64,000 nt of DNA from a virus. Both the position numbers and the translations under genes were made by a program. The notes below the pieces were generated by a model that worked only from the letters and a program-made list of their open reading frames with translations, did not search any database and was not told the DNA's origin. Positions 11,977 through 50,174 of this stretch are shown piece by piece; position 1 is the first letter of the stretch; the number at the start of each line of letters is the position of its first letter. The stretch is from the IMG/VR virus record IMGVR_UViG_3300032360_000001, positions 1 through 64,000 of that record. The stretch is one strand, 5' to 3'.

Positions 11977-11985
11977 CACCATAAC

Positions 11986-15533: not shown

Positions 15534-15537
15534 TCAA

Positions 15538-20598: not shown

Positions 20599-20600
20599 TT

Positions 20601-22481: not shown

Positions 22482-25400
22482 TTATCCCTTTTTATACAAT
22501 AAACCTCCCGGCCTCTGTTCCTCGACTATTGTCTGCAGAACAACCCCCTGCATTAACTCTGCAAATCTTTCGTGTTTGTCTGCGTCGTCTTCTCCATCTT
22601 CACCCGCGCCTTCGTTCCCGCCTTCTGAGGATGACGACGCGGTTGCTTCTGCTGTACCGTCGCTGTTTACATTAACTGTTACCGCAACGTTGTTTGTTAT
22701 CTCTTGATTTACACCACCAGTGCCATCCTGAGTGCCGTTTTGCTCTCCAGCGCGTTTTTCTCTTTGTTTTTCGTCTGTTTCTTTATCAACTGTATCTCTT
22801 ATTGATTGAACTATATCAACCAATTGCATGAGAGAATCCGTCATTCCTTCGGCTCCCTGCCCCACATTTAGACCTAAAGCGCCACCAGTTGCGGAAGCGA
22901 TAGGAGAGGTGGGGGCAAATTGAGATTGCCTTCCAACCATTCCCCCCTCTGCAAACCTTGCAACTTGACCTCCATGTTTTGCTATGTCGTTGTACTTGAG
23001 GAGCGCGTTTGCTCCGCCGGGGAATTGATCAACTCCCTCCTTGCTGATCACAAACTCTCCCCTCGTAAGTAAGGCTTTAATTGTGTCCTCGCCGGGAGGT
23101 CCATCCGCGTCAGTTATTAGTCCTCCTTGGGCTTTTCTTGGTACAGGAAACCCGCCCATGTTGCCGCCGGGCTTCAGCATCCGCCCAAGCATGTCCTCGT
23201 TTTCGTTCATGCCCTCCAACTGGTTTCTTCTTACCGTCGCCGCTTCTTTACTTCTTGCCCACCCGAGCTTAATTGCTTTAAGATTTGCTCTTTCTTTGTC
23301 GTTCATCCCCCACACATTATTAGCGTTCTTCTCAAGAAGGCCCGGGTGAAGAGCTTGGCTGTTTGCAAGGAAGGCTTGCTTACCCGCTTGGACATGTCGT
23401 AATTTATCTGCGTGGGCCTTGGCAGTCTTTTCGGCCAATGCGCGTCTTGGCCCTCCGGGCTCGCTTTCATTTATAACGTCGGTCCACTTATCTATACCTC
23501 TCTGCGCCTTATTCTCTTCCTTAACCCACTGCTTGAGTTGCGTTTCGGTTCCGTGAAATGCAATGCTTTGTTCCGCGGCTGTTATTTCTTCGGGTTTTAG
23601 GTGTTTCTTCCACCGGTCTAATGCAGCCTGCTGAACCGCGGGATCGCTGCTGTTCAAGGCATTCTGTTCCGCCTTGCCCAGCCCCTTAATTTTCGCGTAG
23701 GATGTTATAGCAGCCGTTGCTGCTGCTGTTCCGGCAGTCAGGGCTAATTCCTCTTTTTCCAAGCCCATGCCCCAGCCTATAAGGGCTGTTGATCCGCCTG
23801 CTATTACCGACGACCCTACGGGGCTATCCGCCCATTTCATTTTCTTCGCCCACGAGTCATGCGCTGCTTGATTGACATAATCTCCTGCCTTTACCCCTTG
23901 CGGCGCGCCGTCCATAGACTTAAATTGAGCCGGATTGTCCGCGACTTGTTGATCCGTACCATATTTTTTATTTGCTGATTGCGACTTGGCCGCTACTCCA
24001 ACCTGCACCGCTGCGACAGCAAACTGAATCCACGCCGACGTGAGCATCTGTTTCTTTTTCGTCTTGAACTCGTCCCATTGTTCTTTTCTATTTTCGTATT
24101 CTTCTTTAAGGTAGATTTTATAATCAACGAACATCTTCCTTCGTTTCTCACGCATCTCATTCTGCTTGTTATTTTTGTCTCCCATGGCATACGCGCTCAT
24201 TTTGTGATCCACGAAAAATCTTCCTAATGATGGTTTGTCGGGGTCATTCACAGCGAATGCGTTTGTCCCCCCGTATTTAAATCCTTTCCCAAATCGTTCT
24301 TCCACCACCTCGGCAACACGCGTCATGCCTTCACCCGGCATATTTCCAGAGTTATACCACTTTTTATCTTGTGTTGCTATGCCTTCCATTTTAAATCCAC
24401 CGGGAGAGCCCTGCCATGCTTCCGCAAGGTTATCCCCGTATTTTTCATTCAGGCTTGGTGGGTTCCTCTCTCCAGTCTCCTCTCCTTCGCTCTCTTGATT
24501 TTCTTCAGTCGCCTCGTTGGCTTTCTGAATTAGTTCCTCATCAACTTCGCCACCTTCTTCCATGCGTATTCTTCCCGCCTCTATGTCCTTAAAATACTGG
24601 ACGCCATTATCTTTTACTGCTTTCTGGGTCATCACCATTTCGCCCTTTTTCAGATACACCGGTACGTCATCTGTCGTTCCCGAGCCAGCGGTAATCAATC
24701 CTCCTCTTTGTCTTCGTTCAGGAGCCACTCTTCCCCGACGGGTGGGCAAGCCGCGATCACTGCGCTGCTTATCATTAGCTCTGGATTGCCACTCTGTGGT
24801 GTAATCAGGTCTCCACATCCAAAATGGACCTATATTTTGCGTCATGGCCGTAGGCTTCATTCCACTGTTAAATTCTGTGCCCATTGGTATCTGCCAAGAT
24901 TTATACCATTCTTCATCTGAATCTAATAAACCTGATTGCCGCTGGCCGGGCACAGTTACTCCTCTTGCTAGTCTTTTATCTGTTGCTGATTGTTCTAGGG
25001 ATTTTTTCCATACATTTTGAATGTCTTCGCGTGCACCGATCCACCCGTTAGTCGCATTGCCCAGAACATCGCTTCCGTAATGCGTTCTGTATCGCTCTGT
25101 AACGGCGCGTGCCGCATCACCCCCGCTGAGCCAAGTATTCATGTCGTTAAACCCCTGTGGGCTTTGTTGGAATACCGACAGTCTTCCGGATAAATGCCAA
25201 TTATCGTTATCCGCGTCGCCAATGGCGCTAAATTGTTGTGCTTGTCTGACGTTTCCGGAAGTGGGCTTGAATCCCCCCGGCGCACCCTGCCACGCGATAT
25301 CTCTCATGCTAATCTCGCTTGCCGTCGTCGCTTCTCCCGGTTGTGCGGCGCGCCAACTAAATCCCCTCCTCGTCGGCGCTTGAACCCACCACGCGCCATT

Positions 25401-28400
25401 TCTCACCTCAGCTGGATATCTGGAACCGCCAACCGATATTCCGTACCCAGTAGAAATGCCGTGCCTTGTTCTTGATGCTTGATTATTGTATCTATTTCTC
25501 ATTGCGTCCCCAACGGCAAACACAAGATCTGGGTGCTGTGGTCCGACTTCTGAAAATATTACCCTAGCTACGTCTTTATCTACAGCTGACGGGTGTACTC
25601 CCCACGCTGCAAAGTCTGGGGTTTCTTCTCTTTGGAAATATCTTCCTCGATTCCTCATCGCGTTGCGATGCGCTGCTGTCGGCGGGCCTATTCTGGCTAC
25701 TCCACCACGATCAATATTACCCCCCACTAGAGTGCTTGCTTCTGGCCCCCGCGTATATCTATATCCACCGGGAGAAACGCCGTGTGCTCCACGTGTTGCT
25801 CTCACGCGTGGAGCAGCCATGTGGCCGTGAATTCCGGCGCGATATCTTTCCGTAGCTAACGCTAATCGATTGGGGCCGGCAGCAGTAGCATTGTAGGTGT
25901 CTCGCCAAAAGTCACGGAGTCTATTATTCCATGCTTGGTGTTTCGGTAGCAATGTCTGGTTACGGCCAGTAGCAGGAATTTCAAGTGCTGATTGTCTTCT
26001 AAATTGATTCGGAACAGAGCCCCCACCTCTGGGATTCCAAACAAAACCGCCTGCGCCATATTCTACGGGCTGCATTGTGCCATATATAGTTGACATCTTA
26101 TTAAACTGCTCCCACCACCCTTGCCTAAAGCCCGGGAACGGTTTCCCATCAAGCATACCCGGTCTTTTGTCTGCTTCCGGATTGAACAAATGTTCCCCTC
26201 CCGGTATAAGAACAACGTCATTTGGCTTAAGGAATTTACTAATATCAGGTTTCCCCCCGGCTCTCGTCTTTAACGCTTTCATTAATTCCGGATTGGCCGC
26301 CGCCAGTGCCGCAGAAATAGTAACTCCATTTGCGCCCATGCTGATTGCCTTGGCGGTAGTCATTTCTTCTCGGTATTGCTGACCTATAGAGGTAAGACCT
26401 TCTCCCACCTTTACCACGTGACCTAGTCCCTTTCCGGGAATTATTTCGTATCTTGACGGAAAACCTTCATTTTCGTCGAAAAATTTGTTTTTAGGATCCA
26501 ATTCCCATTTAGCCTCTGGATCGAAGCCCCCTGTATGCGGCAAGCCAGTATATGGATGCACCTCCACTTCAGCGCGGTTCTTCGATTTAAAATGTTTTTT
26601 GGTCAAAAACCCGCTGGGTGCCCTACCTTTCCACCCGGCTTTGGACATGCCAGAGTAGCCCACCACCATACCTAATGCCTCTCTAGTCTTCTTGTCGCCC
26701 TCGATTCTGCTTGGTACTGGAACTCTGTGTGGCCCTTTGGGCTTAGGATTTATTGGCGACCTCCGTGCTCGTTCTTCCGTCAGTGTTGATCGACGTGTCG
26801 GGGTCGGTATACCTTTTTTCTTTCGGAATAATGTTAATGCCTCAGTAGTAGCGGCTCCAGCGTAGCCGTCAATCTTGAGAGGCTTAATCTGACCGGCTTT
26901 AGGATTTGGCGACATGAGACCCATGCTGGTTAAATGTTTATTAAGAGCTCTTTGTTGATCTTTCCTTTCGCTCTCGCCGGTGAAGAACGCGTTAATGCCA
27001 CCCCCTTGCTCACCAGCGGCCCCCGGAAAATTTGTCATATCCTGACCCCATAATCCCGTATAGCCTCCGCTCTTTATGCTAAACCATTCGTTTAATACTC
27101 CAAAAGCTTCTGGTTCAATCCACCCGGCAGCCATCATGTCATTCGCTACGCCGGGTTGCATACCGTTTTCCCATTCCGAAAAACCGGCTGGGTGCATCAG
27201 CTGACTCATTCTTTTTCCCGGTTTTAATTTAATCTTTTCGGCGTGACGAATCATCTTCATGTAAGCTGACTCAAATGTATCGTTCTTTGTAAACCCAAAT
27301 CTTTCTATATTATTTGGATCTTTTATCCAATTTAATATGTGGGAGTTATTAGCCAACTTCTTTATATAATTCTTGTCTAATTTTGGTACTTTCGCCCTGA
27401 ACGTGTCTCTAGCCGTTACTACGCCACCCGCACCGAATTGTGGTACGTCCCGATCCGGTCCACGACGTAGGTTTTCTAATTCCTCCATCAGATCTAGATT
27501 TAGAGGAAGCGCATTACCCTTGTTCTTACGGGGGTCGGGCCCAACCCCTGCCCCCCATCCGCGTTTATTGAGGGCCCAAGGTGCTGGGTGAACGCCTTCG
27601 GGCCATGGGTCACCACCCAACGGCATGCCAAATGGACCAAATCCCGCATCCCTCATCCCATCGATCTCGTTCTCACGATCAAGCATGGCCAGATGGTCAG
27701 CTAATTGTTGTTGGCGTACTGGATCATCTTTCCTTGCTCCCCCCCACTCAGCAGCGGTTGGCCCAAAGGCGTTGTTACCTGAGGAGCCGCCTACACGGCT
27801 GAAGCCGCGACGACGCGGGTCCACGCGGTCCCAAAACGGCAGTTTATCGTTGAATTTGCGCGCCGGTGAGTCGCTCCATGGATAAGCAGTACCAACGATA
27901 CCACCATCTCCAAATCTTGGAACCCCCTCCCCAAGACCGGGCATCGTTGAATTCCGGTCCCTCAGGTCCGGCCTAGGAAGACCCGTGGCGGGATCAATCT
28001 CAAACGGCCATGGTATCTGTGGTGGCATTGGCGTGCTTGGGCCTTGTTGCCGGTTTCGGCGCGAAGGTATGCGATGCATACCCTTTGGGAGTGGCGCAAA
28101 GGGGTCATTCCACCATCTGCCCTGACCGGGATCAGGTTCCAAACCCATTGCACTTGTAGGTGAGTCGGGGCTTCCAACAGGCAGCGCATTTGGCGCTTGA
28201 ATAAATTTATTGTACCACGCGTTTCCCTTCCCCTGCATAAGACGGTCCTTCAAAAGTCTTTTATGAAGAGCGTAGTTTTCACTCCATCTATGCTGCGATC
28301 CAATCCCTATTTTATCCAACTCCGAAATGGATGCCGAGATCTTTGGATCCATTAGCAATCCCGAAGTGCCCATTTCTGTAAATATTCTTTTGTTATAATC

Positions 28401-31400
28401 TCCTATATGGGGTATAAGTTCGGGCATGGATTCATCCAGTAACTCTTTCTCACTAAGAATATGGCGTGGGTTCTGCGTTTGCCTTTTCATGAGGAACTTG
28501 TATATTCTGCTTGCTTGCGAATTGCCCTGATGAAAAGCCCCCATGTTATCGGCCTGCTCAAACTCACCGATGAGGCCCTTCTCCTTCATAAACGAGTGGA
28601 ACCACAATCTCTCGCTCATCATGCCGGGGGTGGCCCTATCTTTGGTCCTGTTCGAAGTCGAAGTGTGCCGAGTTTGAGTACCTATCCTCTGCCCAAACAT
28701 AGTTCTAGGTATCTCCATACCCGGCGGCGCAAACATCGCAACCCCCCTGTTGCTAGAGGAGGCAGCGCTCCTCATTTTGTTTTCGGTCCGGAATTCCAGA
28801 TTGATCCTAGCCATGCGTTTTTTCTCGGCTTCTAATTCGGCCCTCTTCGCCAGAGCCTCCTTAGACAAGTTATACCATTCGTCACCTCTGGGTATTTCAG
28901 TGGATAGATCACCCCTCCCAGACTTTATGAGCGCTTCTCTTAAACCTTCTTCTGTCATGGGTCCCCGCTTGTGGAGGGGTTGACCAAAGAAACCCTTACT
29001 TGGAATTTGTCCCGTAATTTGAAGCATTTGTCTTTGCTGGATCTTCTTCTCCCAAGCATTTTGATATTGCGTAACGGGACCTCCGTCTTGATAAACCTGT
29101 GGGTTAGCCCATCCGGATTTATTTTTTCTCCACCACTGATTTAGATGAGCAAAGGCTAAAGGGTTTCTCTCTTGAAAGATTTGTAGCTCTTCTCTGGCGG
29201 CTATCTCTCTCTCGTTAAGACGAGCCGGAAATCCCGCTATGGGCAAGCCGTTAACGCCAATTCGTTCCGCGAATGTCAACAATGTGTGCTCTTTCTCATG
29301 ATCGTAACCGCCCTCGGCAATGTTTCGCCTCATATTGCGCATCTTTTGCGAGGCAAGGTCCTTGGGGGTACCCTTGTGACGAAATGGATTACCCGGAATT
29401 CCAATTTCCCGTCTGAATAATTCTTGCATCTCCATTTGGGATTGCACCTCATGAAACGCTGGCGGAGCTTTGTCAAAAGCAAATTGTCCGTGCTCACCGC
29501 CGGGATTGCCCGGCGCACCGGGCAAAACTTTCACTCCCCTTAATGGGTTCCGGCCCAAGTTTAAATTGCCGCCAAGCTGCTGGCCGCCGCCCCACCCCGG
29601 CATAAGTGGTTGCTGCTGCGCCCAAGTATTTGGGTGCCGCCAAGGATTTTGAGGCACCGGACCACCTTGTTGGAACATCCTTCCTTCATTTATCTCGCGT
29701 AAATGACCCAGCACTCCGGGCTTTCTGACTTCGCTTTTTCTGACTATGAATTCTCCGCCCTCTGCTTCGAGCTTAATGCCTCCCCTCGAGTGAGAAGGAC
29801 CATGAAGCTCTCCACCTGACTGTTGTTGCGGTAAGCTTGGCCTCCCATAGTTTCCAAAGCCACCGCTCATCAAGTTCCCCATAAATCTACCTATCGTAGC
29901 GTTATAGAACGCTTGGTTTATCATCTTTAAAAAACCTCGAGCCCACGCTTTCGCCGTCTCGGTGGCGCTTTCGCCCTCTACTGCAAAAGCTGCCCAACCG
30001 TCTGCGAAAGACGAAATCATTCCTTCTCTTATCTCAATCATGTCGTCGAGGACCCTTTCCTTCCATCCTCTTGACATTGCCTCACCCTTCTCAAACGTGT
30101 CCGCTCCAAACGCTTCCCAGACACCTATTTTTCCCGTTCTTAGTTGCTGACGGGTTATATCCTGTTCTCTTTGGTATGTATCTGCAGGTGTTCCTATGCC
30201 CGCTGCTTCTTCTAGTCTGGCTTGTTTTGCTGCTAGCCTTAATTGAACCTCTGTCAGTTTTTTTGTTGAGTTTAATAATTCTTTGAATTTTTTGGGGTCA
30301 TCCATTATGGACAAACTCATTGTTGTATTCGCTATCTGCGTGTCGAGTGCCTCCATCCTCTTCACGTGCTCTGCGGTTACAAATCTTTTTTGTATTTCTA
30401 TAGCTGCCTGAGTTACCGATCCCCAGTTATCGATAATTACCTTTTGAGCATTCAGCGCATCTGTGTGTGATTGTTTTGCTTTTCTTAATTCATTTTCAGC
30501 ATCTTTTCCTGCGTTTATAATGTTTATGTAGTCAGCGTATGTTGCGTTATGCGCGTCGAGTTGATTTGTTTCATTTTTTCTTGCTAACGCTGACGCTTCG
30601 GTTGCTGCCTCCAGATCATCGTTGACCTTCTTAAGCTCTTCTTTAGTATCGTCGCTCTGCTCCTTCCTTAGTATTACAGCTTTCTCGTTAAGCAACCTAA
30701 CCACATTATCCTCCGCGGTCTTCTTCTCATTAGCCGTTACCCCCAACGCCGCATCACTTTTCTCAAAATCTTTGAATTTCGCTGTCCGCATCATGTGGGC
30801 CTTTAAAACATTTGCTTCCGCCACCTTACTCTCTGCGAGAGCTTCTTTTCTTCCCCCCGCGGCTGCTTCTTTTTCAATGGTCAAAATTTTCTCCATCTCT
30901 CTCTTGAGGTTCCGCTGCTGGGTTTCCCCCACTCTTGATGGTGAAATCGCGCTAAATGTCTGCGCGGCAAATGCGCCACCCGGCTGTGATGTCCTTGGGC
31001 TGCGCATCTGTTGCAATAGGTTTTCCCTCGGTAAGCCCTCTTGTCTTATAAGCTCCTGATCGAGCTCGAAAGGAGACATGTCTTGCAAATCTTTTGAGGA
31101 AATACCAATTGCTTTAGAGAACTTTTCAAGCGCGGCACTGGCTTCGAGCAAAGCGTCTCTTTCTGCTTGTAAAGAGTCAACAAGCCCCTTAGACTGCTCG
31201 TTTGCTGCCTGATTTAGAGCTATTTGGTCCGCGGCTGCCTTTGCTCTTGGGTCAGTAATCTCGCTGGGAAGTAGCGCCGCGCCACCACGCGCCTCTATGG
31301 TTTTTTGGAGCATGGCCGATTGGTCTGTTCTTTCTTTTATAGCCCTCTGTTCTAAAGCTGTTCTTAATACCACCGCATTATGCCGCGCTCTTATGTTTCT

Positions 31401-37400: not shown

Positions 37401-40400
37401 GTGGCCTTGTTGTCTTAGCTTTTCGATTTTTGCATTGTATGCTGGGGTGTGTGGAAGACCAGTAGAAGGATTTATTCCGGGAACGCCACCAACGGTGCCT
37501 CGCTCTGCGCGTAACCCAGTCATTCCTAGTCCCGCTGGTCCGGAATGCGCCATTCCAGCGCCTCGCGGCCCCGGGGTACCGTGCATTATTGCCCTGTTCA
37601 CTTCTCTTCGAACTATTCTATCTGCTGCTTTTTGCTGCGCCGCTTCAGCTTGCTTTACGCCTCCCGTTCTCTCCCCCCCCGGAGTGGTTCTCGTTCCGAA
37701 TTTGGCCTCCATTCGGCTCTTGGTCGCCTTCTGAGCGTCGCGCCCATGCTCCTTGACCTCCGTTTGTAATCTAGTTTTTTCTTTTTGTTGGGCTTTTCGT
37801 GCTCTTTCTTGTTTTTTAGCGGCTGCTTTCGCTTTTTTCTTTATATCTTTTTGTTTTTCGTGATCCGCCTTTTGATCGGCCAGCATTTTTGTTTCTTGAG
37901 CGCTGTCTCCGCCCATTTGCATCATCATTCCTGCCATCATCATTCCTGATGTCATGGCCATGTAATCAACGCTATCTGCAGCATAGTTGGGTATGTAACC
38001 CCCACTTGCCCTCGAGCCCGCTTTAGCTGGGTCTGGGTGAGATCTAACAGCTTTAATTAGATCCGCCTTTGTCCGTTCATCTCTCTTATTTCCTACCGCC
38101 AAACCTTTGTATTCTGGAGTATCTATGGAAGCTGCATAAAGTTGATTTTCGGGTAACCCGGTGGCTTTCTTTTCCCTTCTAAACGCATCCGCTAGTGCAT
38201 CGCCTTTGCTGAAACTAGGAATGAGCCCTTGGCCAGCTGGATTAACCTGCCCCCAATTACTGCCATAATTTACTATTCGGGGCCGTATATTCATATCTTT
38301 GCTTGCACCTCTTAGTGCCGCGTAATATGCGTTTGCCCGTGAGTCTTCATAGAACTTTGCGTTTTGTAAATGTGGGCGTTCAAAAATTTCATAGGCCTTC
38401 TTCTGGTGAGTTTTCTCTATCCCTTTGGGGTATTTTCTGCTTCCAGTAGCTATTACTTCCCTGTATGGAATTTTTTGGGCTTTTAACCAAGTCTGAATAT
38501 ATGGAATTGAATCTTCCCCTCTTGCGGTTAAAACCGTCATTGGCTCTTTATTTTTTGAGGCTGCCTTCGCTAATTTAGTTGGTACCATATGACCGACAGA
38601 CCAACCATGCCACGTATCCCCTTCTCGCATTTTTCTCATACCTGTTGGGGTGGTAACCATCCCTTTTGGAGGTACTCCCAACGTCCCATCAAAATCAAAA
38701 ATGTTTCCCTTTCCGCGTCCACGGGCTGCGGCTGCCATCGATCCTCCCCGCATTAAATTAGGAATGAAACCTTGGGCCGCACCAAAATGCGTCATTAGTT
38801 TATCATAATTCGATGCCGATGGACTCCCTTGAAGGATCTTCATTATATCCTTACCAAAAATATCTTTTATTTGTGTAGCGCCTTTGGCCCCCTCAAGCGT
38901 AACTTCACTTTGGGAAACTCTTTGCATTCTTTGGAAGTCTGCCGTTTTTGCGGTATCTATATAGTTATCTAATTTTGTTAGATCGCCCTGCAACTTCTGC
39001 GGACTGTGGAATGTGCCGGCTTTATCTTTGTAGCCGCCGCGGGCAATATTCTTTTCTATTCCTGTCCGTAAAAAATGCAATAGTCCGCCCTCTTTACCCG
39101 AGTCAGAAGAGAATAACGATTTGTACGACAGGCTTCCTCTGGCGTCTCTGCCGGACATCCCCGCATGAAAACTTGGTTTGAATTCAGCAGGTCCAATTAT
39201 TTTCCCCCCTTTTATAGCTATTGCATCTAGAATTGTTTCTCCTTGCCCCCCCTTTACATTGCTAAACGGCAGAAGTTGATGGCCGCTACCACGACCAACA
39301 AGGGCTTTTTCTATTAAACTAGAATGAGTTAATTCCGCTTTTGCAAAAAATGAGCCTTTAGCAGCGGGGTTGTTACCTAGCACCTCCATTGCCCTTTCTC
39401 TTGCCCCCAAGAATGACCGTGCTGTCCCGCTTGGGTGGTATACTATATCTTGTGCTATACGCGACGCGTTACCCGCACCCCCAACTGAATCGACGAAGCC
39501 CTTGTACGCCGTCTTACCAACCGCCGGAGATAATAGATCATTGTAAAATCGTTTTGCAACATCGCTTGGCATTGTAGCTCTCGCAACTGCTACTTCTCCT
39601 ATTTCTCCTAACGCTATTTTTCCCTTTGCGGCTGACACACCATGACCCGATATTGCATGATCATAAGCGGTCCTTAATACGTTTTTTTGCCCCTTAGGAA
39701 CCTTGGGTCCGGATTTATGGAATCTCCCTATTCCGAAACTTTCTAAAGAAGCGGCTGCTCCTTTTCCGGGCATGGCTACTGTACCCAACCCCAGTTTGCC
39801 TCGACCAAATAAAGAAAGCATCGCTGGGTTGGCGAAATTTGGAACTGAATAAGGATCGACACCAGTTTTGGCCATTGATTTTTCTCTATGTTGCCTACCG
39901 GCCTTCGAGTGCTGTGGTGGATTAATGAATGGCTGAGCAAAGCCGGGTACATGTTTAACCTGTTCTTTTGAGTTGTAGGTCATTGTTCCAAGCCCGGGCA
40001 TTTTCATTTGTTTTATGGCTCCTGCTTTGTACCCGCCTTCTGCTGCGCTTATTATTTCACTTACAGCGCTTTCTCTCTTGTTAAAATTCGGTATGTGTCC
40101 CCGCGCCGAGTGTTTGGGCGGTCTACCCCTCATATACGCCGGTGCCTGTACTTGTCCTGCACCACTTACGGTTACCCCGCCCTTTACCATCATGCCAGCC
40201 ATTCTTGCGGCAACCTTCTCCATGTTCTGCATCACAAGGGTCTCTTGCTCGAGCATAGCGATTATTTCTCTTTCTACCTGCACTCTTGCTTGCGATGACT
40301 GCGCTGCTCTTGCTATAAGTTGTGGCTGAGCTTCCAATATTTTGGCTATTCCTTCTTGCAAGCTTTTTTGTTGTACAGCAGCGGTGTTCAAACCCATGAA

Positions 40401-41771
40401 TTGGGCTCCTGATTCCTTGACGAATTTTGCTAAATTCATTCCAAGTTTTCCAAGGAATCCAGTTAATAAAAGAAGTCCCGGGCCTTGCAAGAAATTTCCA
40501 ATTCCGGACAACATTCCTTGCGCAATTTTTCCCCCCACATCTTTCGTGTCCTTTTCGTTTATGTCGCCTAAAACTTTTTGCATAACTCCAACCACCCTCT
40601 CTGTGACTGGTCTTAACGTTAGGTCTCCTACTTTCTTTGCTGCCTGCGTGGCTAGAGCCATCGTCTTTTTTACTTGAGCGTCGAGAGTTTTGTTGAGCAG
40701 TTCATTTCTTAATATCGCTTCGTTTGTCGATCCCGTCGATACCTTAACGGCTTTATCGTAAATCGAATATTCTTGTCCAAGGTCAGAGAGTATCGCTCTT
40801 AAGTTATTCATTTGGAATACGCCAGCAGTAACCTCAGCAGTATGAGCTTGTTGAGCCTTAGATAGCGTAGGAAACTTTTTGGCCAAATTGCCAAGAACAT
40901 TCATTGCGGGCATCATTTGCCCCTCCAAGTCTCTCACCTTCACCCCTAATTCTTCCAAGAGATTAAGAGTGTCTTTTCTTTGGATTCTTGTAAATATACT
41001 TTTTAACGCGTTACCAATAACGGGACCACCACGGGCCGTTGTTTGCTGAACGGAAGCTGTGATTGCAAGAAGTTGATCAAAGGATACGCCAACGTCCTGA
41101 GCGGTACTTCCCACACGCCTCATGGATTGAGCTAAATCATCTGTGCTTACGGCAAATGCCGCATCCACATTGGCAAGCTTATTAATTACCTGAGTAGAAC
41201 TTAATGCCTCCCTATTGAACGTATTTAATGCTGCCGTTAAGGAAGAAACTGATGCCGCCGCATCCATACCGGAAAGTCTCGTAAGAATGAGGGCGTCGCT
41301 TGTTCTCTGAAGCGTCTCTTCGGTTGACAAACCTTGCCTAGCTAATTCTGTCGCTGCTTCAGCTACAGTATCGAAACTTTGTGCCGTTTTTTGCGCTATT
41401 GTGAAAAGGCTGTTTCCGAACTTTGCGAGGCCTCGATCTGTTTGTCCTAAAATTACATTGACATCCTGAAGTCTTTTCTCGACCTCAATAGTACTTTTAA
41501 GTAAAAATTCAAATGCCCTTTGGACTTGAAAAATCGCCCCAGCAGAAGCTCCAAACGCTAAAACACGCGCATTTGATGCTTCGAGTGATCTTGTGAATTC
41601 ATTTGTGGCACCAGTGATTTTCCCAAGGGGCCTAGTAAATTTCCCAGAGTCAACGCTAACGTTAACCCCTCGCCTTTCTACTTGGGTAATAGCGCTGTTT
41701 ATTTGCCTTAAAGTGGCTTGTAGTGACGCGCTATCTAACCTTGTTCCTAGTGTGATAAAACTATCCGCCAT
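22482..41771 (-). CDS. Giant tape measure protein, 6429 aa (TP901-family core, with embedded HAD, nuclease-like, LysM, PG-binding and SleB-like domains)
   Basis: N-terminal TP901-type domain (AATELARQGLS...AFAVSTDDLAQSMRRVGSTAQDVGVSFDQLLA...IGNALKSIFTRI), long helical tracts, a Gly/Ala hydrophobic segment at ~37060-36845, and position after the tube and chaperone genes. Confidence 0.93.
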   Translation of the reverse strand: MADSFITLGTRLDSASLQATLRQINSAITQVERRGVNVSVDSGKFTRPLGKITGATNEFTRSLEASNARVLAFGASAGAIFQVQRAFEFLLKSTIEVEKRLQDVNVILGQTDRGLAKFGNSLFTIAQKTAQSFDTVAEAATELARQGLSTEETLQRTSDALILTRLSGMDAAASVSSLTAALNTFNREALSSTQVINKLANVDAAFAVSTDDLAQSMRRVGSTAQDVGVSFDQLLAITASVQQTTARGGPVIGNALKSIFTRIQRKDTLNLLEELGVKVRDLEGQMMPAMNVLGNLAKKFPTLSKAQQAHTAEVTAGVFQMNNLRAILSDLGQEYSIYDKAVKVSTGSTNEAILRNELLNKTLDAQVKKTMALATQAAKKVGDLTLRPVTERVVGVMQKVLGDINEKDTKDVGGKIAQGMLSGIGNFLQGPGLLLLTGFLGKLGMNLAKFVKESGAQFMGLNTAAVQQKSLQEGIAKILEAQPQLIARAAQSSQARVQVEREIIAMLEQETLVMQNMEKVAARMAGMMVKGGVTVSGAGQVQAPAYMRGRPPKHSARGHIPNFNKRESAVSEIISAAEGGYKAGAIKQMKMPGLGTMTYNSKEQVKHVPGFAQPFINPPQHSKAGRQHREKSMAKTGVDPYSVPNFANPAMLSLFGRGKLGLGTVAMPGKGAAASLESFGIGRFHKSGPKVPKGQKNVLRTAYDHAISGHGVSAAKGKIALGEIGEVAVARATMPSDVAKRFYNDLLSPAVGKTAYKGFVDSVGGAGNASRIAQDIVYHPSGTARSFLGARERAMEVLGNNPAAKGSFFAKAELTHSSLIEKALVGRGSGHQLLPFSNVKGGQGETILDAIAIKGGKIIGPAEFKPSFHAGMSGRDARGSLSYKSLFSSDSGKEGGLLHFLRTGIEKNIARGGYKDKAGTFHSPQKLQGDLTKLDNYIDTAKTADFQRMQRVSQSEVTLEGAKGATQIKDIFGKDIMKILQGSPSASNYDKLMTHFGAAQGFIPNLMRGGSMAAAARGRGKGNIFDFDGTLGVPPKGMVTTPTGMRKMREGDTWHGWSVGHMVPTKLAKAASKNKEPMTVLTARGEDSIPYIQTWLKAQKIPYREVIATGSRKYPKGIEKTHQKKAYEIFERPHLQNAKFYEDSRANAYYAALRGASKDMNIRPRIVNYGSNWGQVNPAGQGLIPSFSKGDALADAFRREKKATGLPENQLYAASIDTPEYKGLAVGNKRDERTKADLIKAVRSHPDPAKAGSRASGGYIPNYAADSVDYMAMTSGMMMAGMMMQMGGDSAQETKMLADQKADHEKQKDIKKKAKAAAKKQERARKAQQKEKTRLQTEVKEHGRDAQKATKSRMEAKFGTRTTPGGERTGGVKQAEAAQQKAADRIVRREVNRAIMHGTPGPRGAGMAHSGPAGLGMTGLRAERGTVGGVPGINPSTGLPHTPAYNAKIEKLRQQGHAQAGKIISQSVDTSGRTPRGSVGEHSGDKAAKDLTKKTLLLQKAREAEARAADRANAANEKKAAAQAKIWAMDKKMATTSRKVAAAKHAEAKAAEKAAALKPDTKGAASKWIKQKGFGLGIGIQMMAGVAEQFVGGKGETPEERAEKAKVRGVGTAAGMAGTGAMIGGPWGAAAGLAIGAGLAFMDHQKASKKTAEDYAKAIQKETEARKKALLGAEAYIKLQGRLTGMFNRGAGPAETGMMRRQMREQLMQIEDAGLRRELIGAAGDESKMREAMAKVQETISMQEKKGSMGVLAAKAGEGGAAQRGVMKDLAKTLSSAFELKGIKSWELMGKSGADLTAKLEEMGVGAKEAADMIEALGEENQGLIPQIMAQARGYEELEAETSKSVESIERMALATADLNYRLSQISNSFEHLMNVSKSLFDHSQKVSKELSSAVTGDETIGRERRERFGVAGNILKNIETNTLKNTLLQKRFHDAILKMTMEKSSAGGSLPGGLQQLQVLARQMIVGPADLAADIYRGIINDKEGGVGREQGRKLEDALSKAEYEIKENNLNLAQSNRLLIIQNQIAESNRAFQRRRTLQESMTAGGGFGGGGIIDALKKLTTVAGLPTRGERSKAAMMQMQGLRDLEKMGFDFANGIGKAMKESLLERTFRAEAPDALEALGMSPENVSRVINSNFNPDIGKSIIESMNSAQGGMMAEVMDSANLSKIASEERAYKAKLLEAEFKNRNMLVESLGANVDVTALLIGSNYDLIVSNEKLGSAAMAAEEFGANQRRTNDQVYKAAIDTAMTGAVSKMGEIMSKANTGFMQAVEVFRGEQSLQHTRINQEKAFASLEGKTAGAEDMMANLSKGTKFSMVPPQHEEIFDKGGILWSLHKANTWLVKHIDAAAGSLLPGESMTWENITEKMDVWAVSKQEVKDSSFDINMAKFMERVRTGGNAEDVGKMTVAFEAYKSTLTDANVPQDSQMKISLVRAQEALLRSFARISEVTEEQGLIERTELPTGETRVRGTLPLDLNDWEKTQTWMGTSASPSEAIKILTKDLKDMVFEGDSGNWQPNMISALSKLTDVVALLPGKKGFEAYELQSDPKKLLTALLAIQTAVIGVHPSQPGQIYTRGTRQVLSPGIGGGETWDQTQQRGGRTDASYYNEIPLIRVQQPLEQGEYEGMMVGVSDMMEDYRSAGKLLFTNFQKTFKEGRTVDVSEAKLIKAALDKFEGQEARIRKVLEGVALRTGDEEGFFEREGDIKPLLEQFDTITDAFQASLKAIIDPNKGIVVDKKLAEQIAALLSKQIKELKPFRSSTIDLGGGVPDRPKGGGTVDAVKEWTNSFSKAAENTMKEWIFSVNTMDVGNNISDALNSFADYADNFSNGMEILNATIDELADTELAISADPLETPLLAIQQSIDALSKLNSSENEDTKNALNNKEDIVINVLTNILEAILSDETVSKSQREEIKNALHLLPEQYKRAMDEIEGRSSSRLLRDKLFDLRKQTTSAPIPPPLIPGSMLAGQVRRGTEQTTQPLTTMARQTFGKYGRSFLRGNKGYQGPRSGLPSVKELLGIDPDKAFKNIPDPSEIDKMMKDVEKASPEVSDPGGRASVIYLTKLKTGSDKIHDIARQAAERLMGDNAEMIDEIHKLAPFLGDLPFQELEKGLEAANKDMSAVKRVQTAATQKASAMARTLGRHTMEMANVFINQNLLAAFRGPQQVNVAKRVGGQWMDKLKDAMPDIAGKVTGMGPEGLSPGTFEGGLFGGKLNQDALWRRAAVRKEGGVFTPDRTRDYEHSMLGPGSIWKISGMQNDPATFGDKRDMAYRFLTNLSQGKAHQRMITAPGGNVGGPPALGFTAAREHTILGGDTANAIAQTYGVSLDNLKGANPQIANINRINAGDKMNIPAQYSIEHTLGQKLTANQQKKIAAQLDKQFKEGVAYHNEIHKANVAQKKITDNAKEIAAIEEKIKNRTIEAGKAQDKLKALYAQRTLIESKLTEVQKRLLVAESKIGDRNIRARHNAVVLRTALEQRAIKERTDQSAMLQKTIEARGGAALLPSEITDPRAKAAADQIALNQAANEQSKGLVDSLQAERDALLEASAALEKFSKAIGISSKDLQDMSPFELDQELIRQEGLPRENLLQQMRSPRTSQPGGAFAAQTFSAISPSRVGETQQRNLKREMEKILTIEKEAAAGGRKEALAESKVAEANVLKAHMMRTAKFKDFEKSDAALGVTANEKKTAEDNVVRLLNEKAVILRKEQSDDTKEELKKVNDDLEAATEASALARKNETNQLDAHNATYADYINIINAGKDAENELRKAKQSHTDALNAQKVIIDNWGSVTQAAIEIQKRFVTAEHVKRMEALDTQIANTTMSLSIMDDPKKFKELLNSTKKLTEVQLRLAAKQARLEEAAGIGTPADTYQREQDITRQQLRTGKIGVWEAFGADTFEKGEAMSRGWKERVLDDMIEIREGMISSFADGWAAFAVEGESATETAKAWARGFLKMINQAFYNATIGRFMGNLMSGGFGNYGRPSLPQQQSGGELHGPSHSRGGIKLEAEGGEFIVRKSEVRKPGVLGHLREINEGRMFQQGGPVPQNPWRHPNTWAQQQPLMPGWGGGQQLGGNLNLGRNPLRGVKVLPGAPGNPGGEHGQFAFDKAPPAFHEVQSQMEMQELFRREIGIPGNPFRHKGTPKDLASQKMRNMRRNIAEGGYDHEKEHTLLTFAERIGVNGLPIAGFPARLNEREIAAREELQIFQERNPLAFAHLNQWWRKNKSGWANPQVYQDGGPVTQYQNAWEKKIQQRQMLQITGQIPSKGFFGQPLHKRGPMTEEGLREALIKSGRGDLSTEIPRGDEWYNLSKEALAKRAELEAEKKRMARINLEFRTENKMRSAASSSNRGVAMFAPPGMEIPRTMFGQRIGTQTRHTSTSNRTKDRATPGMMSERLWFHSFMKEKGLIGEFEQADNMGAFHQGNSQASRIYKFLMKRQTQNPRHILSEKELLDESMPELIPHIGDYNKRIFTEMGTSGLLMDPKISASISELDKIGIGSQHRWSENYALHKRLLKDRLMQGKGNAWYNKFIQAPNALPVGSPDSPTSAMGLEPDPGQGRWWNDPFAPLPKGMHRIPSRRNRQQGPSTPMPPQIPWPFEIDPATGLPRPDLRDRNSTMPGLGEGVPRFGDGGIVGTAYPWSDSPARKFNDKLPFWDRVDPRRRGFSRVGGSSGNNAFGPTAAEWGGARKDDPVRQQQLADHLAMLDRENEIDGMRDAGFGPFGMPLGGDPWPEGVHPAPWALNKRGWGAGVGPDPRKNKGNALPLNLDLMEELENLRRGPDRDVPQFGAGGVVTARDTFRAKVPKLDKNYIKKLANNSHILNWIKDPNNIERFGFTKNDTFESAYMKMIRHAEKIKLKPGKRMSQLMHPAGFSEWENGMQPGVANDMMAAGWIEPEAFGVLNEWFSIKSGGYTGLWGQDMTNFPGAAGEQGGGINAFFTGESERKDQQRALNKHLTSMGLMSPNPKAGQIKPLKIDGYAGAATTEALTLFRKKKGIPTPTRRSTLTEERARRSPINPKPKGPHRVPVPSRIEGDKKTREALGMVVGYSGMSKAGWKGRAPSGFLTKKHFKSKNRAEVEVHPYTGLPHTGGFDPEAKWELDPKNKFFDENEGFPSRYEIIPGKGLGHVVKVGEGLTSIGQQYREEMTTAKAISMGANGVTISAALAAANPELMKALKTRAGGKPDISKFLKPNDVVLIPGGEHLFNPEADKRPGMLDGKPFPGFRQGWWEQFNKMSTIYGTMQPVEYGAGGFVWNPRGGGSVPNQFRRQSALEIPATGRNQTLLPKHQAWNNRLRDFWRDTYNATAAGPNRLALATERYRAGIHGHMAAPRVRATRGAHGVSPGGYRYTRGPEASTLVGGNIDRGGVARIGPPTAAHRNAMRNRGRYFQREETPDFAAWGVHPSAVDKDVARVIFSEVGPQHPDLVFAVGDAMRNRYNNQASRTRHGISTGYGISVGGSRYPAEVRNGAWWVQAPTRRGFSWRAAQPGEATTASEISMRDIAWQGAPGGFKPTSGNVRQAQQFSAIGDADNDNWHLSGRLSVFQQSPQGFNDMNTWLSGGDAARAVTERYRTHYGSDVLGNATNGWIGAREDIQNVWKKSLEQSATDKRLARGVTVPGQRQSGLLDSDEEWYKSWQIPMGTEFNSGMKPTAMTQNIGPFWMWRPDYTTEWQSRANDKQRSDRGLPTRRGRVAPERRQRGGLITAGSGTTDDVPVYLKKGEMVMTQKAVKDNGVQYFKDIEAGRIRMEEGGEVDEELIQKANEATEENQESEGEETGERNPPSLNEKYGDNLAEAWQGSPGGFKMEGIATQDKKWYNSGNMPGEGMTRVAEVVEERFGKGFKYGGTNAFAVNDPDKPSLGRFFVDHKMSAYAMGDKNNKQNEMREKRRKMFVDYKIYLKEEYENRKEQWDEFKTKKKQMLTSAWIQFAVAAVQVGVAAKSQSANKKYGTDQQVADNPAQFKSMDGAPQGVKAGDYVNQAAHDSWAKKMKWADSPVGSSVIAGGSTALIGWGMGLEKEELALTAGTAAATAAITSYAKIKGLGKAEQNALNSSDPAVQQAALDRWKKHLKPEEITAAEQSIAFHGTETQLKQWVKEENKAQRGIDKWTDVINESEPGGPRRALAEKTAKAHADKLRHVQAGKQAFLANSQALHPGLLEKNANNVWGMNDKERANLKAIKLGWARSKEAATVRRNQLEGMNENEDMLGRMLKPGGNMGGFPVPRKAQGGLITDADGPPGEDTIKALLTRGEFVISKEGVDQFPGGANALLKYNDIAKHGGQVARFAEGGMVGRQSQFAPTSPIASATGGALGLNVGQGAEGMTDSLMQLVDIVQSIRDTVDKETDEKQREKRAGEQNGTQDGTGGVNQEITNNVAVTVNVNSDGTAEATASSSSEGGNEGAGEDGEDDADKHERFAELMQGVVLQTIVEEQRPGGLLYKKG

Positions 41772-42831: not shown

Positions 42832-42837
42832 ATGTAT

Positions 42838-42863
42838 AAAAAAACCCCCACCTTAGGCGGGGG
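42838..42863 (-). terminator. Intrinsic terminator between the two chaperone genes
   Basis: Minus strand CCCCCGCC-TAA-GGTGGGGG followed by T7; ends 6 nt before the ATG at 42831. Confidence 0.75.
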
Positions 42864-42885
42864 AGTTCAGGTTAGTTTTCCATTA

Positions 42886-49056: not shown

Positions 49057-49059
49057 ATC

Positions 49060-50172: not shown

Positions 50173-50174
50173 AG

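What the first reader, a model, noticed from the sequence alone, without database searches (positions are those of the whole stretch)
22482..41771. Tape measure protein organised as a motif-delimited polyprotein carrying enzyme cargo (best candidate for a new system)
Seen: about 15 copies of one short motif family in two clusters. N-terminal cluster: SARGHIPNF (~40090), YSVPNFA (~39840), AAQGFIPNLMRGG (~38760), AGQGLIPSFSKG (~38215), ASGGYIPNYA (~37990). C-terminal cluster: QQSGGEL (~29815), MFQQGGPV (~29665), VYQDGGPV (~29080), VPRFGDGGIV (~27905), VPQFGAGGVV (~27430), EYGAGGFV (~26050), RRQRGGLI (~24700), RMEEGGEV (~24550), VPRKAQGGLI (~23125), RFAEGGMV (~22945). Recognisable globular domains sit between successive motifs, while the helical ruler region (~37900-29850) appears to lack them. 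Known: TMPs are ejected into the host, lambda gpH and T5 pb2 are proteolytically processed, and single FAxGG motifs occur near many TMP C-termini. Inference: the motif is a cleavage or loading signal and a recombination joint, making the TMP a cassette-loaded effector magazine, with cytoplasm-type enzymes in the N-cluster and wall-acting domains in the C-cluster.
Basis: partly seen in the sequence, partly recalled or inferred. Interest (0 to 1): 0.9.

Follow-up and report, generated by a model that had tools for sequence, protein, structure and literature searches.

The report
Giant tape measure with cassette joints
A marine phage encodes a 6,429-residue tail tape measure protein in which swappable protein cassettes are separated by one short conserved peptide, and that peptide resembles the place where phage T5 is known to cut its own tape measure protein.

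Summary
All 15 reported peptides lie in one 6,429-aa ORF (22482-41771, minus strand) with a TP901-type tape-measure core.

The G-[FLY]-[IV]-P-N-[FY] motif defines a family of uncultured giant tape measure proteins. It occurs 250 times in 26 proteins, against 1.7 expected.

Homology blocks end at the motifs: 36.5% of block ends lie within 5 aa of one, against 2.2% at random. All three large indels between this protein and its two nearest relatives run exactly from motif to motif. One cassette, HAD-like by motif pattern only, recurs in two other tape measure proteins and is again motif-flanked.

The N-terminal (IPNF) and C-terminal ([FY]xxGGxV) forms are halves of one composite motif, found 16 times against 0.46 expected. 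The GG form also flanks the conserved C-terminal module of lambda gpH. T5 pb2 is cut, by published mass spectrometry, inside SFVPR|AEGGMM.

Codons differ between copies, so selection acts on the peptide, not on a DNA joint.

Not supported: Pfam recognises none of the ten inter-motif segments. The N=cytoplasmic, C=wall-acting split is contradicted by one relative.

Best reading (about 0.5): the motifs are processing joints of a multi-cassette carrier. The scan noted this stretch once before (e1-6113911).

The parts
22482..41771 (-). Tape measure protein ORF, 6,429 aa (21.6% of the 89,345-bp virus record)
   Evidence: PF10145 E 1.8e-32; TIGR01760 E 7.4e-36
40836..41396 (-). PhageMin_Tail / TP901 core match, aa 126-312. 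The conserved core block C0 spans aa 1-~554.
40083..40109 (-). Type-A motif 1, SARGHIPNF (aa 555-563)
   Evidence: 24.2 bits
39852..40082 (-). Conserved module M1 (aa 564-640). It recurs after the core, and before the C-terminus, of relatives.
   Evidence: 16 phmmer hits, E 1e-13 to 1e-31
39831..39851 (-). Type-A motif 2, degenerate, YSVPNFA (aa 641-647)
   Evidence: 3.1 bits; positional homology
38781..39830 (-). Cassette K1 (aa 648-997), orphan. The only homologue found is in P0003-type tape measure proteins.
38742..38780 (-). Type-A motif 3 with GG tail, AAQGFIPNLMRGG (aa 998-1010); a composite form
   Evidence: (24.3 bits)
38238..38741 (-). Cassette K2 (aa 1011-1178). It has the HAD-like motif set DFDGT / TVLTAR / KK / FYED. 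It is absent from P0003 and present, motif-flanked, in P0041 and P0042.
   Evidence: no Pfam or PDB support
38202..38237 (-). Type-A motif 4, AGQGLIPSFSKG (aa 1179-1190)
   Evidence: 19.3 bits
38010..38201 (-). Conserved module M2 (aa 1191-1254), the last unit of the N-terminal array throughout the family
37980..38009 (-). Type-A motif 5, ASGGYIPNYA (aa 1255-1264)
   Evidence: 26.4 bits
29826..37979 (-). Motif-free middle ('ruler'), aa 1265-3982. It is rich in helix-forming residues.
31722..31853 (-). LysM domain inside the ruler (aa 3307-3350)
   Evidence: E 2.9e-07
29805..29825 (-). Type-B motif QQSGGEL (aa 3983-3989)
29679..29804 (-). Lambda-type module copy 1 (aa 3990-4031; ...GGEFIVRKSEV...)
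29655..29678 (-). Type-B motif MFQQGGPV (aa 4032-4039)
29097..29654 (-). Cassette aa 4040-4225. It is absent from P0003, which keeps both flanking motifs 7 aa apart.
29073..29096 (-). Type-B motif VYQDGGPV (aa 4226-4233)
27924..29072 (-). Cassette aa 4234-4616. It is absent from P0002, which has a single motif at the junction.
27894..27923 (-). Composite motif VPRFGDGGIV (aa 4617-4626)
27417..27446 (-). Composite motif VPQFGAGGVV (aa 4776-4785)
26040..26063 (-). Type-B motif EYGAGGFV (aa 5237-5244)
24693..24716 (-). Type-B motif RRQRGGLI (aa 5686-5693)
24567..24692 (-). Lambda-type module copy 2 (aa 5694-5735; ...KKGEMVMTQKAV...)
24543..24566 (-). Type-B motif RMEEGGEV (aa 5736-5743)
23115..23144 (-). 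Composite motif VPRKAQGGLI (aa 6210-6219)
22959..23114 (-). Lambda-type module copy 3 (aa 6220-6271; ...TRGEFVISKEGV...). It aligns to gpH 740-796.
   Evidence: E 0.025 against two sequences
22935..22958 (-). Type-B motif RFAEGGMV (aa 6272-6279). This is the closest match to the T5 pb2 R|AEGGMM site.
22485..22934 (-). Acidic C-terminal tail (aa 6280-6429)
13182..14006 (+). gpK-like protein 1: Prok-JAB plus NlpC/P60, with an intact HSHx7Sx2D motif. It is a candidate processing peptidase; that role is inference only.
14003..14857 (+). gpK-like protein 2: Prok-JAB, with an intact HSHx7Sx2D motif
41806..42831 (-). 341-aa protein of no known family, conserved directly upstream of the tape measure gene in the family. 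It is a candidate assembly chaperone or partner.
42886..43839 (-). 317-aa protein of no known family, also conserved upstream of the tape measure gene in the family

Best explanation
The ORF is a real, giant TP901-family tape measure protein (TMP) of a marine siphophage. Its layout is: conserved core (aa 1-554), an N-terminal array of modules and swappable cassettes (aa 555-1264), a motif-free ruler of about 2,700 aa, a C-terminal array of cassettes interleaved with three copies of the lambda-gpH-type C-terminal module (aa 3983-6279), and an acidic tail.

Every unit is bounded by one short peptide joint. The full form of the joint is about G-phi-[VI]-P-x-Ar-x-x-G-G-phi-V. The N array keeps the first half (GF[IV]PNF). 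The C array keeps the second half ([FY]xxGGxV).

Shown here: the joints are selected as peptide, and cassettes are gained, lost and exchanged exactly at them across a large uncultured family.

Inferred mechanism: the joints are proteolytic processing sites. As in T5 pb2 (cut at SFVPR|AEGGMM, which frees the C-terminal enzyme piece that stays in the tail until ejection), each joint would let a cassette be separated from the ruler during tail maturation or after ejection. T5 would then be the one-cassette case and this protein the multi-cassette case.

The peptidase is not identified. The two gpK-like JAB metallopeptidases in the tip module are candidates for the GG form.

My probabilities: modular architecture about 0.9; cleavage at the joints about 0.5.
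For: Identity: TMP core and lambda-like tip genes gpM/L/K/K/I/J nearby.

Motif frequency: 250 copies in 26 proteins (128,307 aa) against 1.68 expected, with a maximum of 7 in 200 shuffles.

Block ends: 36.5% of 2,678 homology-block ends lie within 5 aa of a type-A motif, against 2.2% at random. For the GG type the figures are 14.6% of 288 ends against 2.4%.

Indels: 3 of 3 large indels against P0002 and P0003 run from motif to motif. One of them leaves an empty slot with two motifs 7 aa apart.

Architecture: conserved, with 1-11 mostly unique cassettes per protein.

Cassette K2: recurs at 51-52% identity in P0041 and P0042, motif-flanked on both sides.

Peptide-level selection: synonymous codons differ between copies.

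Composite motif: 16 observed against 0.46 expected.

Lambda gpH: the top matrix hit is RLMRGYATGGYVGT at 13.3 bits, above all 300 shuffles. That module occurs in 1,047 phage records.

T5 pb2: cleavage after R1127 (PMC10038345, passages read) lies in SFVPR|AEGGMM. This is the only xxGG-phi-phi in 1,219 aa, next to one of only two phi-[VI]-P tripeptides. Only 3 of 1,199 positions share both features.

Lambda processing: gpH loses a ~14-kDa C-terminal piece, the site and the enzyme are unknown, and the piece stays with gpI (PMC12617516, passages read).

Candidate enzymes: two JAB-domain genes with intact metal motifs.
Against: No cleavage data exist for this phage or any family member, and none is cultured: 0 matches among 50,697 phage records for module M2, for the C-terminus, or for a 2,563-aa relative.

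The T5 site scores only 4.1 bits with the family's GG-type matrix. That is the second-best window, but below the 95th percentile of shuffles (7.1). The T5 site is one residue shorter than the composite, and my two-feature test was defined after I had seen the site.

The ~14 kDa lost by lambda gpH fits a cut near aa 710-730, which is 5-25 residues upstream of FATGG.

The type-A matrix does not detect the GG-type copies.

No peptidase with fitting specificity is known for the IPNF form. JAB was found in only 3 of 5 related records, all of them fragments.

The motif occurs in no other protein of the phage.

Four marine metagenomes show no cassette-skipping variants.

That the cassettes are folded enzymes is unproven. 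Several C-array segments are rich in Pro, Gly and aromatic residues and may be disordered.
Confidence: 0.5

Rival explanations
1. The joints are docking sites (short linear motifs) that are bound, not cut. The binder could be a phage assembly chaperone: the two conserved proteins of no known family directly upstream (317 and 341 aa) would hold each cassette unfolded for loading into the tube. Or it could be a host periplasmic chaperone or prolyl isomerase that refolds cassettes after ejection. The core [FY]-[IV]-P-N-[FY] resembles WEYIPNV, the phage-display peptide that binds the SurA P1 domain.
For: The invariant Pro-Asn in a linker rich in Gly, Ser, Lys and Pro suits a recognition turn.

The up317 and up341 proteins are conserved immediately upstream of the TMP in every related locus that holds upstream DNA, at 28-94% identity. 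They match no Pfam or PHROG family.

WEYIPNV binds SurA P1 with Kd 1-14 uM (PMC11401910, passages read). P0001 has GGYIPNYA.

Tandem motifs without a cassette persist in P0003, P0019 and P0020, as independent binding sites would.
Against: The SurA likeness was recalled and then checked only as a string. The TMP motif lacks the first aromatic of Ar-X-Ar-X-Pro.

The host is unknown. The single genome hit is a 7.7-kb contig binned to a Flavobacterium MAG.

No binding could be tested. This reading does not explain why the experimentally mapped T5 cut lies in such a motif.
Confidence: 0.25
2. The segments are not cargo but length units of the ruler. The motifs are structural register marks (turns or strands that keep the TMP chains aligned), so gain or loss of units only tunes tail length.
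For: TMP length sets tail length (established knowledge, recalled).

Family members range from about 1,770 to 7,751 aa.

Most cassettes have no recognisable family.

Parts of the C array have a composition that suggests disorder.
Against: Cassette K2 keeps a four-part HAD-like catalytic pattern invariant in 5 of 5 homologues at 51-89% identity.

Relatives carry VanY (P0026, aa 3280-3362) and a PolyA_pol-family domain (P0015).

The arrays differ in composition from the helix-rich middle.

The long middle part, the obvious ruler, has no motifs at all.
Confidence: 0.12
3. The motifs are conserved because they are DNA recombination joints: shared nucleotide sequence at which cassettes are exchanged.
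For: Indels run from motif to motif, and one motif copy is lost or gained with each cassette.
Against: The 5 type-A and 10 type-B copies use different synonymous codons at nearly every position. Pro is CCG, CCA, CCT or CCC; Gly is GGA, GGT, GGG or GGC. No long DNA identity exists between copies, so what is conserved is the peptide.
Confidence: 0.03

Closest known systems
Phage T5 tape measure protein pb2 (pb2* + pb2C)
   Same: The TMP is cut during tail assembly between the channel-forming part and a C-terminal enzyme piece. That piece stays in the tail and is expelled into the periplasm (PMC10038345, passages read). The cut site SFVPR|AEGGMM carries both halves of the motif seen here. The stretch before it aligns weakly with module 3 of this protein (E = 1).
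   Different: T5 has one site and one 92-aa piece. This protein has 15 joints and about ten cassettes or modules. The T5 site is one residue shorter and has Arg where the family has an aromatic residue. Its matrix score is not significant. T5 has no IPNF-type N-terminal array.
Lambda gpH (gpH* + gpHC)
   Same: The C-terminal module HFATGGF...GEFVFTKE...GYATGGYV is flanked by two GG-type motifs. This protein has three such modules. A ~14-kDa C-terminal piece is cleaved off, and its end binds gpI (PMC12617516, passages read). The neighbouring tip genes M, L, K, I and J are the same set.
   Different: Lambda has one module and no cassettes or enzyme domains. Its cleavage site and its protease are unknown. 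This phage has two gpK-like genes, and its tip genes lie on the opposite strand.
TMPs with embedded wall-hydrolase motifs (mycobacteriophage TM4-type Rpf and peptidase motifs; Bacillus phage Stills TMP with LysM and lysozyme)
   Same: Enzyme or binding domains are carried inside a TMP and delivered at infection. The mycobacteriophage case is recalled and was not checked here.
   Different: Those are single insertions without a repeated delimiting peptide. The Stills TMP has no motif copy.
Polyvalent proteins and polymorphic-toxin-like cassette systems; lumen-loaded cargo of contractile injection systems
   Same: Giant virion-delivered proteins with variable enzymatic modules, exchanged between relatives. 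This comparison is recalled. My literature searches listed no paper that links it to tape measure proteins.
   Different: Here the carrier is the tape measure itself, the modules are mostly orphan sequences, and each is bounded by one conserved 6-12-residue peptide.

Membership tests
TP901-family phage tail tape measure protein (PF10145 / TIGR01760) | Match to the family core model above the curated cut-off | tested here: met
   PF10145: 113.3 bits (cut-off 33.2), aa 126-312. TIGR01760: 123.9 bits (cut-off 28.8). Nine PHROG TMP families match.
TP901-family phage tail tape measure protein (PF10145 / TIGR01760) | Gene sits in the tail module next to the tip or baseplate genes | tested here: met
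   gpM, gpL, two gpK, gpI and gpJ homologues lie at 11431-20598. They are on the opposite strand, about 1 kb beyond the TMP stop.
TP901-family phage tail tape measure protein (PF10145 / TIGR01760) | Determines tail length | not testable with these tools
   No virion or micrograph is available, and no cultured relative was found.
Proteolytically processed TMPs (lambda gpH, T5 pb2) | Conserved C-terminal module flanked by [FY]AxGG-type elements | tested here: met
   There are three copies in P0001. The family matrix puts its top gpH hit at aa 773-786, above all 300 shuffles.
Proteolytically processed TMPs (lambda gpH, T5 pb2) | Sequence like the mapped T5 cleavage site at the joints | tested here: inconclusive
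   SFVPR|AEGGMM shares phi-V-P and xxGG-phi-phi with the joints, and only 3 of 1,199 positions in pb2 have both. The matrix score is only 4.1 bits, below the 95th percentile of shuffles.
Proteolytically processed TMPs (lambda gpH, T5 pb2) | Cleaved fragments present in virions | not testable with these tools
   This needs virion proteomics.
Viral polyprotein | Several functional units in one ORF, separated by a conserved junction peptide | tested here: met
   The function of most units is unknown.
Viral polyprotein | A cognate protease that cuts at the junctions | not tested
HAD phosphatase (cassette K2, aa 1011-1178) | Four catalytic motifs in order (DxDxT; T/S; K; [DE]D) | tested here: met
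   D37, D39, T41, T93, K135/K136 and E153/D154 are invariant in 5 of 5 homologues. This is a read of the pattern only.
HAD phosphatase (cassette K2, aa 1011-1178) | Significant match to a HAD family model or to a solved HAD structure | tested here: not met
   No HAD family in Pfam at E <= 1. The profile against PDB gave a best E of 0.6, to unrelated chains. phmmer against 1.84 billion representatives gave only TMP hits. The fold could not be predicted.
SurA client motif (Ar-X-Ar-X-Pro) | Two aromatic residues spaced Ar-X-Ar before Pro | tested here: not met
   The consensus is x-G-Ar-[VI]-P-N-Ar. The first aromatic is missing. Only the Y-I-P-N core matches WEYIPNV.

The most novel reading that the evidence does not exclude
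The composite peptide G-phi-[VI]-P-x-Ar-x-x-G-G-phi-V is a general processing signal of tape measure proteins. It marks the T5 pb2 cut. It predicts the still-unknown lambda gpH cut, next to FATGG (about aa 731-736) or YATGG (about aa 780). In a large group of marine phages it has been multiplied into arrays. Those arrays turn the tape measure into a magazine of exchangeable, mostly orphan effector proteins, released in order during infection: C-array first at the wall, N-array last ahead of the DNA.
Probability: 0.35. Interest if true: 0.9.

Novelty: new variant of a known kind. Interest (0 to 1): 0.8.

Why it matters
How tape measure proteins are cut, and by what, has been open for lambda since 1974. 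A 2025 structural paper still calls the site and the enzyme unknown. A shared motif that contains the one mapped site (T5) gives a concrete, cheap prediction for lambda and other phages.

Separately, a family of TMPs with up to 20 motif-bounded slots, filled with mostly orphan sequences, would be a new route for phage-delivered proteins and a large pool of unknown functions. Those functions could include wall enzymes, nucleotide or RNA enzymes, and perhaps counter-defence proteins. The joints would also be natural splice points for engineering cargo into phage tails.

Tried and rejected
Sequence searches that found nothing:
- phmmer of aa 1-1300 and of aa 3901-6429 against PDB: 0 hits at E <= 1.
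- Profiles of K2 and M2 against PDB: only chance or repeat-driven hits.
- Pfam on ten separate segments: nothing better than E = 0.15.
- NCBIfam: only the TMP core and a LysM-like match.
- Word-based searches for shorter homologues of aa 545-1270 and of aa 4786-5685: only other TMPs or one fragment.
- tblastn of M2, of the C-terminus, and of a 2,563-aa relative against 50,697 phage records: no match.

Ideas I tested and dropped:
- M1 and M2 are homologous. hhalign gave a probability of 0.06%.
- The neighbouring radical-SAM enzyme modifies the motif. It is present in only 2 of 5 related records, all fragments.
- The motif is shared with head proteins as a head-protease site. It occurs in no other ORF of the genome.
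- up317 and up341 are joined by stop-codon read-through. Several stops and a terminator hairpin lie between them.
- The joints are intein, 2A-like or glycosylation-sequon signals. I rejected these on sequence grounds without a test.

Population data: four marine runs cover the whole gene and show no cassette-skipping joint at a motif. No RNA holder was listed.

Literature: searches for the motif strings, for TMP with polyvalent protein, for TMP with cargo, and for TMP with polyprotein listed no paper describing motif-bounded TMP cassettes. These cover only the held library. S5G and table S3, which show the R1127 mapping, were not seen.

Full report
**What is there.**

The stretch 22482-41771 is one uninterrupted minus-strand ORF of 6,429 codons. 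It takes up 21.6% of a single-contig virus record of 89,345 bp.

Its first ~550 residues are a TP901-type tape measure core:
- PF10145, 113 bits.
- TIGR01760, 124 bits.
- Nine PHROG tape-measure families.

Lambda-like tip genes lie about 1 kb beyond its stop on the other strand: gpM, gpL, two gpK-like, gpI and gpJ. Two proteins of no known family (341 and 317 aa) lie directly upstream.

The sequence recurs in marine metagenomes. Eight runs hold at least half of the sampled words, and two of those may be the source. Four of the runs cover the whole gene at near identity.

**The observation.**

A matrix built from 240 motif copies in relatives, excluding this protein and its two closest kin, gives four N-terminal copies 19-26 bits. 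No shuffle of the protein exceeded 16.3. The fifth copy, YSVPNFA, is degenerate (3.1 bits), but it sits where relatives have DPYASGGFVPNF. The matrix finds no further copy in aa 1265-3982.

The GG-type pattern is looser, and about 2.5-fold enriched in the family.

**A family-wide feature.**

A length-matched search returned 25 other TMPs of 3,597-7,751 aa. Searches for shorter proteins returned more, of 2,196-3,325 aa. One viral contig has a ~1,770-aa version.

In the 26 giant proteins, G-x-[IVL]-P-[NS]-[FLYM] occurs 250 times, against 1.68 expected from shuffling. The consensus is (A/K/F)-(A/S)-x-G-(F/L/Y)-(V/I)-P-N-F-(A/S), set in flanks rich in Gly, Lys, Ser and Pro.

Splitting the proteins at the motif gives a common plan:
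- a core of ~550 aa;
- a conserved ~80-aa module (M1);
- 1 to 11 variable cassettes of ~50-800 aa, most of them singletons;
- a conserved ~70-aa module (M2);
- a long motif-free middle;
- often a second array before the C-terminus.

No cultured phage in the 50,697-record collection has M2, this C-terminus, or a match to a 2,563-aa relative.

**Cassettes change at the motifs.**

- Among all pairwise BLAST blocks between the 26 proteins, 36.5% of 2,678 internal block ends lie within 5 residues of a type-A motif, against 2.2% for random positions. For the GG type in C-terminal halves it is 14.6% of 288 ends against 2.4%.
- Against the two nearest relatives there are three large indels, and all three run from motif to motif.
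  - aa 4234-4616 is missing from P0002, which has one motif at the junction.
  - The K2 cassette is missing from P0003, again with one motif left.
  - aa 4040-4225 is missing from P0003, which keeps both motifs only 7 residues apart, an empty slot.
- An exhaustive phmmer search with K1+K2 found only four proteins, all TMP-like. K2 lies in P0041 and P0042 at 51-52% identity, with a motif on each side and different neighbours.

**Peptide, not DNA.**

The copies within this gene use different synonymous codons at almost every position. So the conserved object is the peptide, and the 'recombination joint' idea fails at the DNA level.

The motif occurs in no other ORF of the genome.

**One motif, two halves.**

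Relatives that lack GG-type motifs in their C-terminal array use the IPNF type there instead, and the reverse also holds.

A composite, phi-P-x-[FYLMK]-x-x-G-G-x-phi, occurs 16 times in 40 proteins against 0.46 expected. Examples:
- NGYVPNFAVGGVVA in P0022 and P0023;
- QGFIPNLMRGG, VPRFGDGGIV, VPQFGAGGVV and VPRKAQGGLI in this protein.

Eight of the 54 C-array GG motifs listed have phi-P two to three residues before the aromatic (my count from that listing), against 0.35 expected.

The type-A matrix alone does not find GG-type copies. The link therefore rests on the composites and on the complementary use.

**Link to studied phages.**

Lambda. The gpH C-terminus reads ...KFHFATGGFTGTGGKYEPAGIVHRGEFVFTKEATSRIGVGNLYRLMRGYATGGYVG.... 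The family's GG-type matrix puts its best gpH hit on RLMRGYATGGYVGT, at 13.3 bits, above all 300 shuffles. This protein's three [GG..GEFV..FxxGGxV] modules align weakly but collinearly to gpH 740-796. That lambda module is found in TMPs of 1,047 phage records. A 2025 paper states the following (passages read):
- gpH loses a ~14-kDa C-terminal piece;
- residues 818-849 of the piece sit on gpI;
- residues ~690-817 are unresolved;
- the cut site and the enzyme are unknown.

T5. The cut was mapped by mass spectrometry after R1127, separating the peptidase piece, which stays in the tail (passages read; the supplement was not seen). In the T5 sequence this site is SFVPR|AEGGMM. AEGGMM is the only xxGG-phi-phi in 1,219 residues, and FVP is one of only two phi-[VI]-P tripeptides. 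Only 3 of 1,199 positions have both features nearby.

Against this link:
- The matrix score at the T5 site is 4.1 bits. That is the second-best window but is not significant.
- The T5 site is one residue shorter than the composite.
- I defined the two-feature test after seeing the site.
- For lambda, a 14-kDa piece would start near aa 710-730. A cut just before FATGG would give about 12.2-13.1 kDa.

**What the cassettes are.**

They are mostly unknown. Pfam finds nothing significant in any of ten segments, and PDB sequence and profile searches find nothing.

K2 keeps an ordered DxDGT / T-A-R / KK / E-D pattern invariant in five homologues. This reads as a small HAD phosphatase, but it has no model-based support.

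The C array is richer in Pro, Gly and aromatic residues than the middle, so some segments may be disordered.

Evidence for wall-related content:
- a LysM domain, though it lies in the 'ruler';
- a weak PG_binding_1 hint, E = 0.18;
- VanY in the C-terminal part of relative P0026.

Relative P0015 has a Pfam PolyA_pol domain. Its GG-x-VRD...D-x-D signature lies at ~aa 4873, between motifs in its C-terminal array. This contradicts a strict rule that cytoplasmic enzymes sit in the N array and wall enzymes in the C array.

**Mechanism.**

Shown: a conserved peptide bounds every unit, it is selected as peptide, and units are exchanged at it.

Inferred: something conserved reads the peptide. I rank the possibilities as follows.
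- Proteolytic processing, about 0.5. This rests on the T5 site, on the lambda precedent, and on the fact that each cassette keeps its own joint. The two gpK-like genes both have intact JAB metal motifs. JAB peptidases are known to cut after Gly-Gly (established knowledge), so they are candidates for the GG form. JAB was seen in only 3 of 5 related, fragmentary records.
- Docking without cutting, about 0.25. Candidate binders are the co-conserved up317 and up341 proteins or a host periplasmic chaperone. The Y-I-P-N core equals that of the SurA P1 ligand WEYIPNV. This is a lead only.
- Structural length units, about 0.12.
- DNA joints, about 0.03.

If the whole chain measured length at 1.5 Å per residue (recalled value), the tail would be ~960 nm. 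The motif-free middle alone would give ~410 nm. This is inference.

By the usual TMP orientation (C-terminus at the tip, recalled), the C array would leave first and the N array last.

**Novelty.**

TMP cleavage and single embedded enzymes are known. A repeated delimiting peptide, hypervariable cassette arrays, and the tie between that peptide and the T5 cut were not found in the literature I could search.

I file this as a new variant of a known kind. The scan had noted the same stretch once before (e1-6113911), and I treated that note as a lead only.

**Limits.**

As a result, 'motifs lie between folded domains' rests on two things only. One is the K2 case, where the motif ends 6-17 residues before the DxDGT strand and the next motif starts ~10 residues after the last conserved block. 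The other is linker-like flank composition.

The host is unknown. The only genome hit is a short contig binned to a Flavobacterium MAG, made up entirely of a TMP fragment with 8 motifs.

Noticed in passing
window 41806-42831 and 42886-43839 (minus strand): Two proteins (341 and 317 aa) with no Pfam or PHROG match are conserved directly upstream of the TMP in every related locus with upstream DNA, at 28-94% identity. They are far larger than usual tail assembly chaperones. A terminator-like hairpin and several stops lie between them at 42832-42885, and I saw no frameshift site. The 341-aa protein ends in a conserved KKGGxLNMExLxKLHG.
   Followed up: partly
window 13182-14006 and 14003-14857 (plus strand): Two tandem gpK-like genes, both with Prok-JAB domains and intact HSHx7Sx2D motifs. 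Only the first also has NlpC/P60. Lambda has a single K gene.
   Followed up: partly
window 11431-22453: The tip genes gpM-gpJ and a 319-aa gene run on the plus strand, converging on the minus-strand TMP. A 298-aa minus-strand ORF of no known family (21557-22453) lies between them.
   Followed up: no
window 31722-31853 (aa 3307-3350 of the TMP): A LysM domain sits in the middle of the otherwise helix-rich, motif-free part of the TMP.
   Followed up: no
window 48307-55059; related records G001 and G002: An operon of sulfotransferase-like, radical-SAM and other genes lies among the structural genes. The radical-SAM gene has two paralogues (61-63% and 36% identity) in two close relatives, but no match in three more distant, fragmentary records.
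   Followed up: partly
P0015 aa ~4873; P0026 aa 3280-3362; P0030 aa 1458-1535: Relatives carry other recognisable pieces inside their TMPs: a CCA-adding/poly(A)-polymerase-type signature (Pfam PF01743 precomputed), a VanY D-Ala-D-Ala carboxypeptidase, and a DUF1269 glycine-zipper membrane segment just after the N-terminal array.
   Followed up: partly
L005 (NZ_JBJXDQ010000198.1, 7,690 bp): A contig binned to a Flavobacterium sp. MAG (GC 34.5%) is one open TMP fragment of 2,563 aa with 8 motif copies. It is the only hint of a host group, and it may be a mis-binned phage contig.
   Followed up: no
window 58363-63615 (minus strand): A 1,750-aa protein with six collagen triple-helix repeat stretches (PF01391, E 4e-32), probably a fibre.
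   Followed up: no
P0003 aa 3816-3838; P0019 aa 1396-1409; P0020 aa 941-954: Tandem motifs with only 2-7 residues between them, that is, empty slots. This suggests that cassettes can be lost while both joints are kept.
   Followed up: partly
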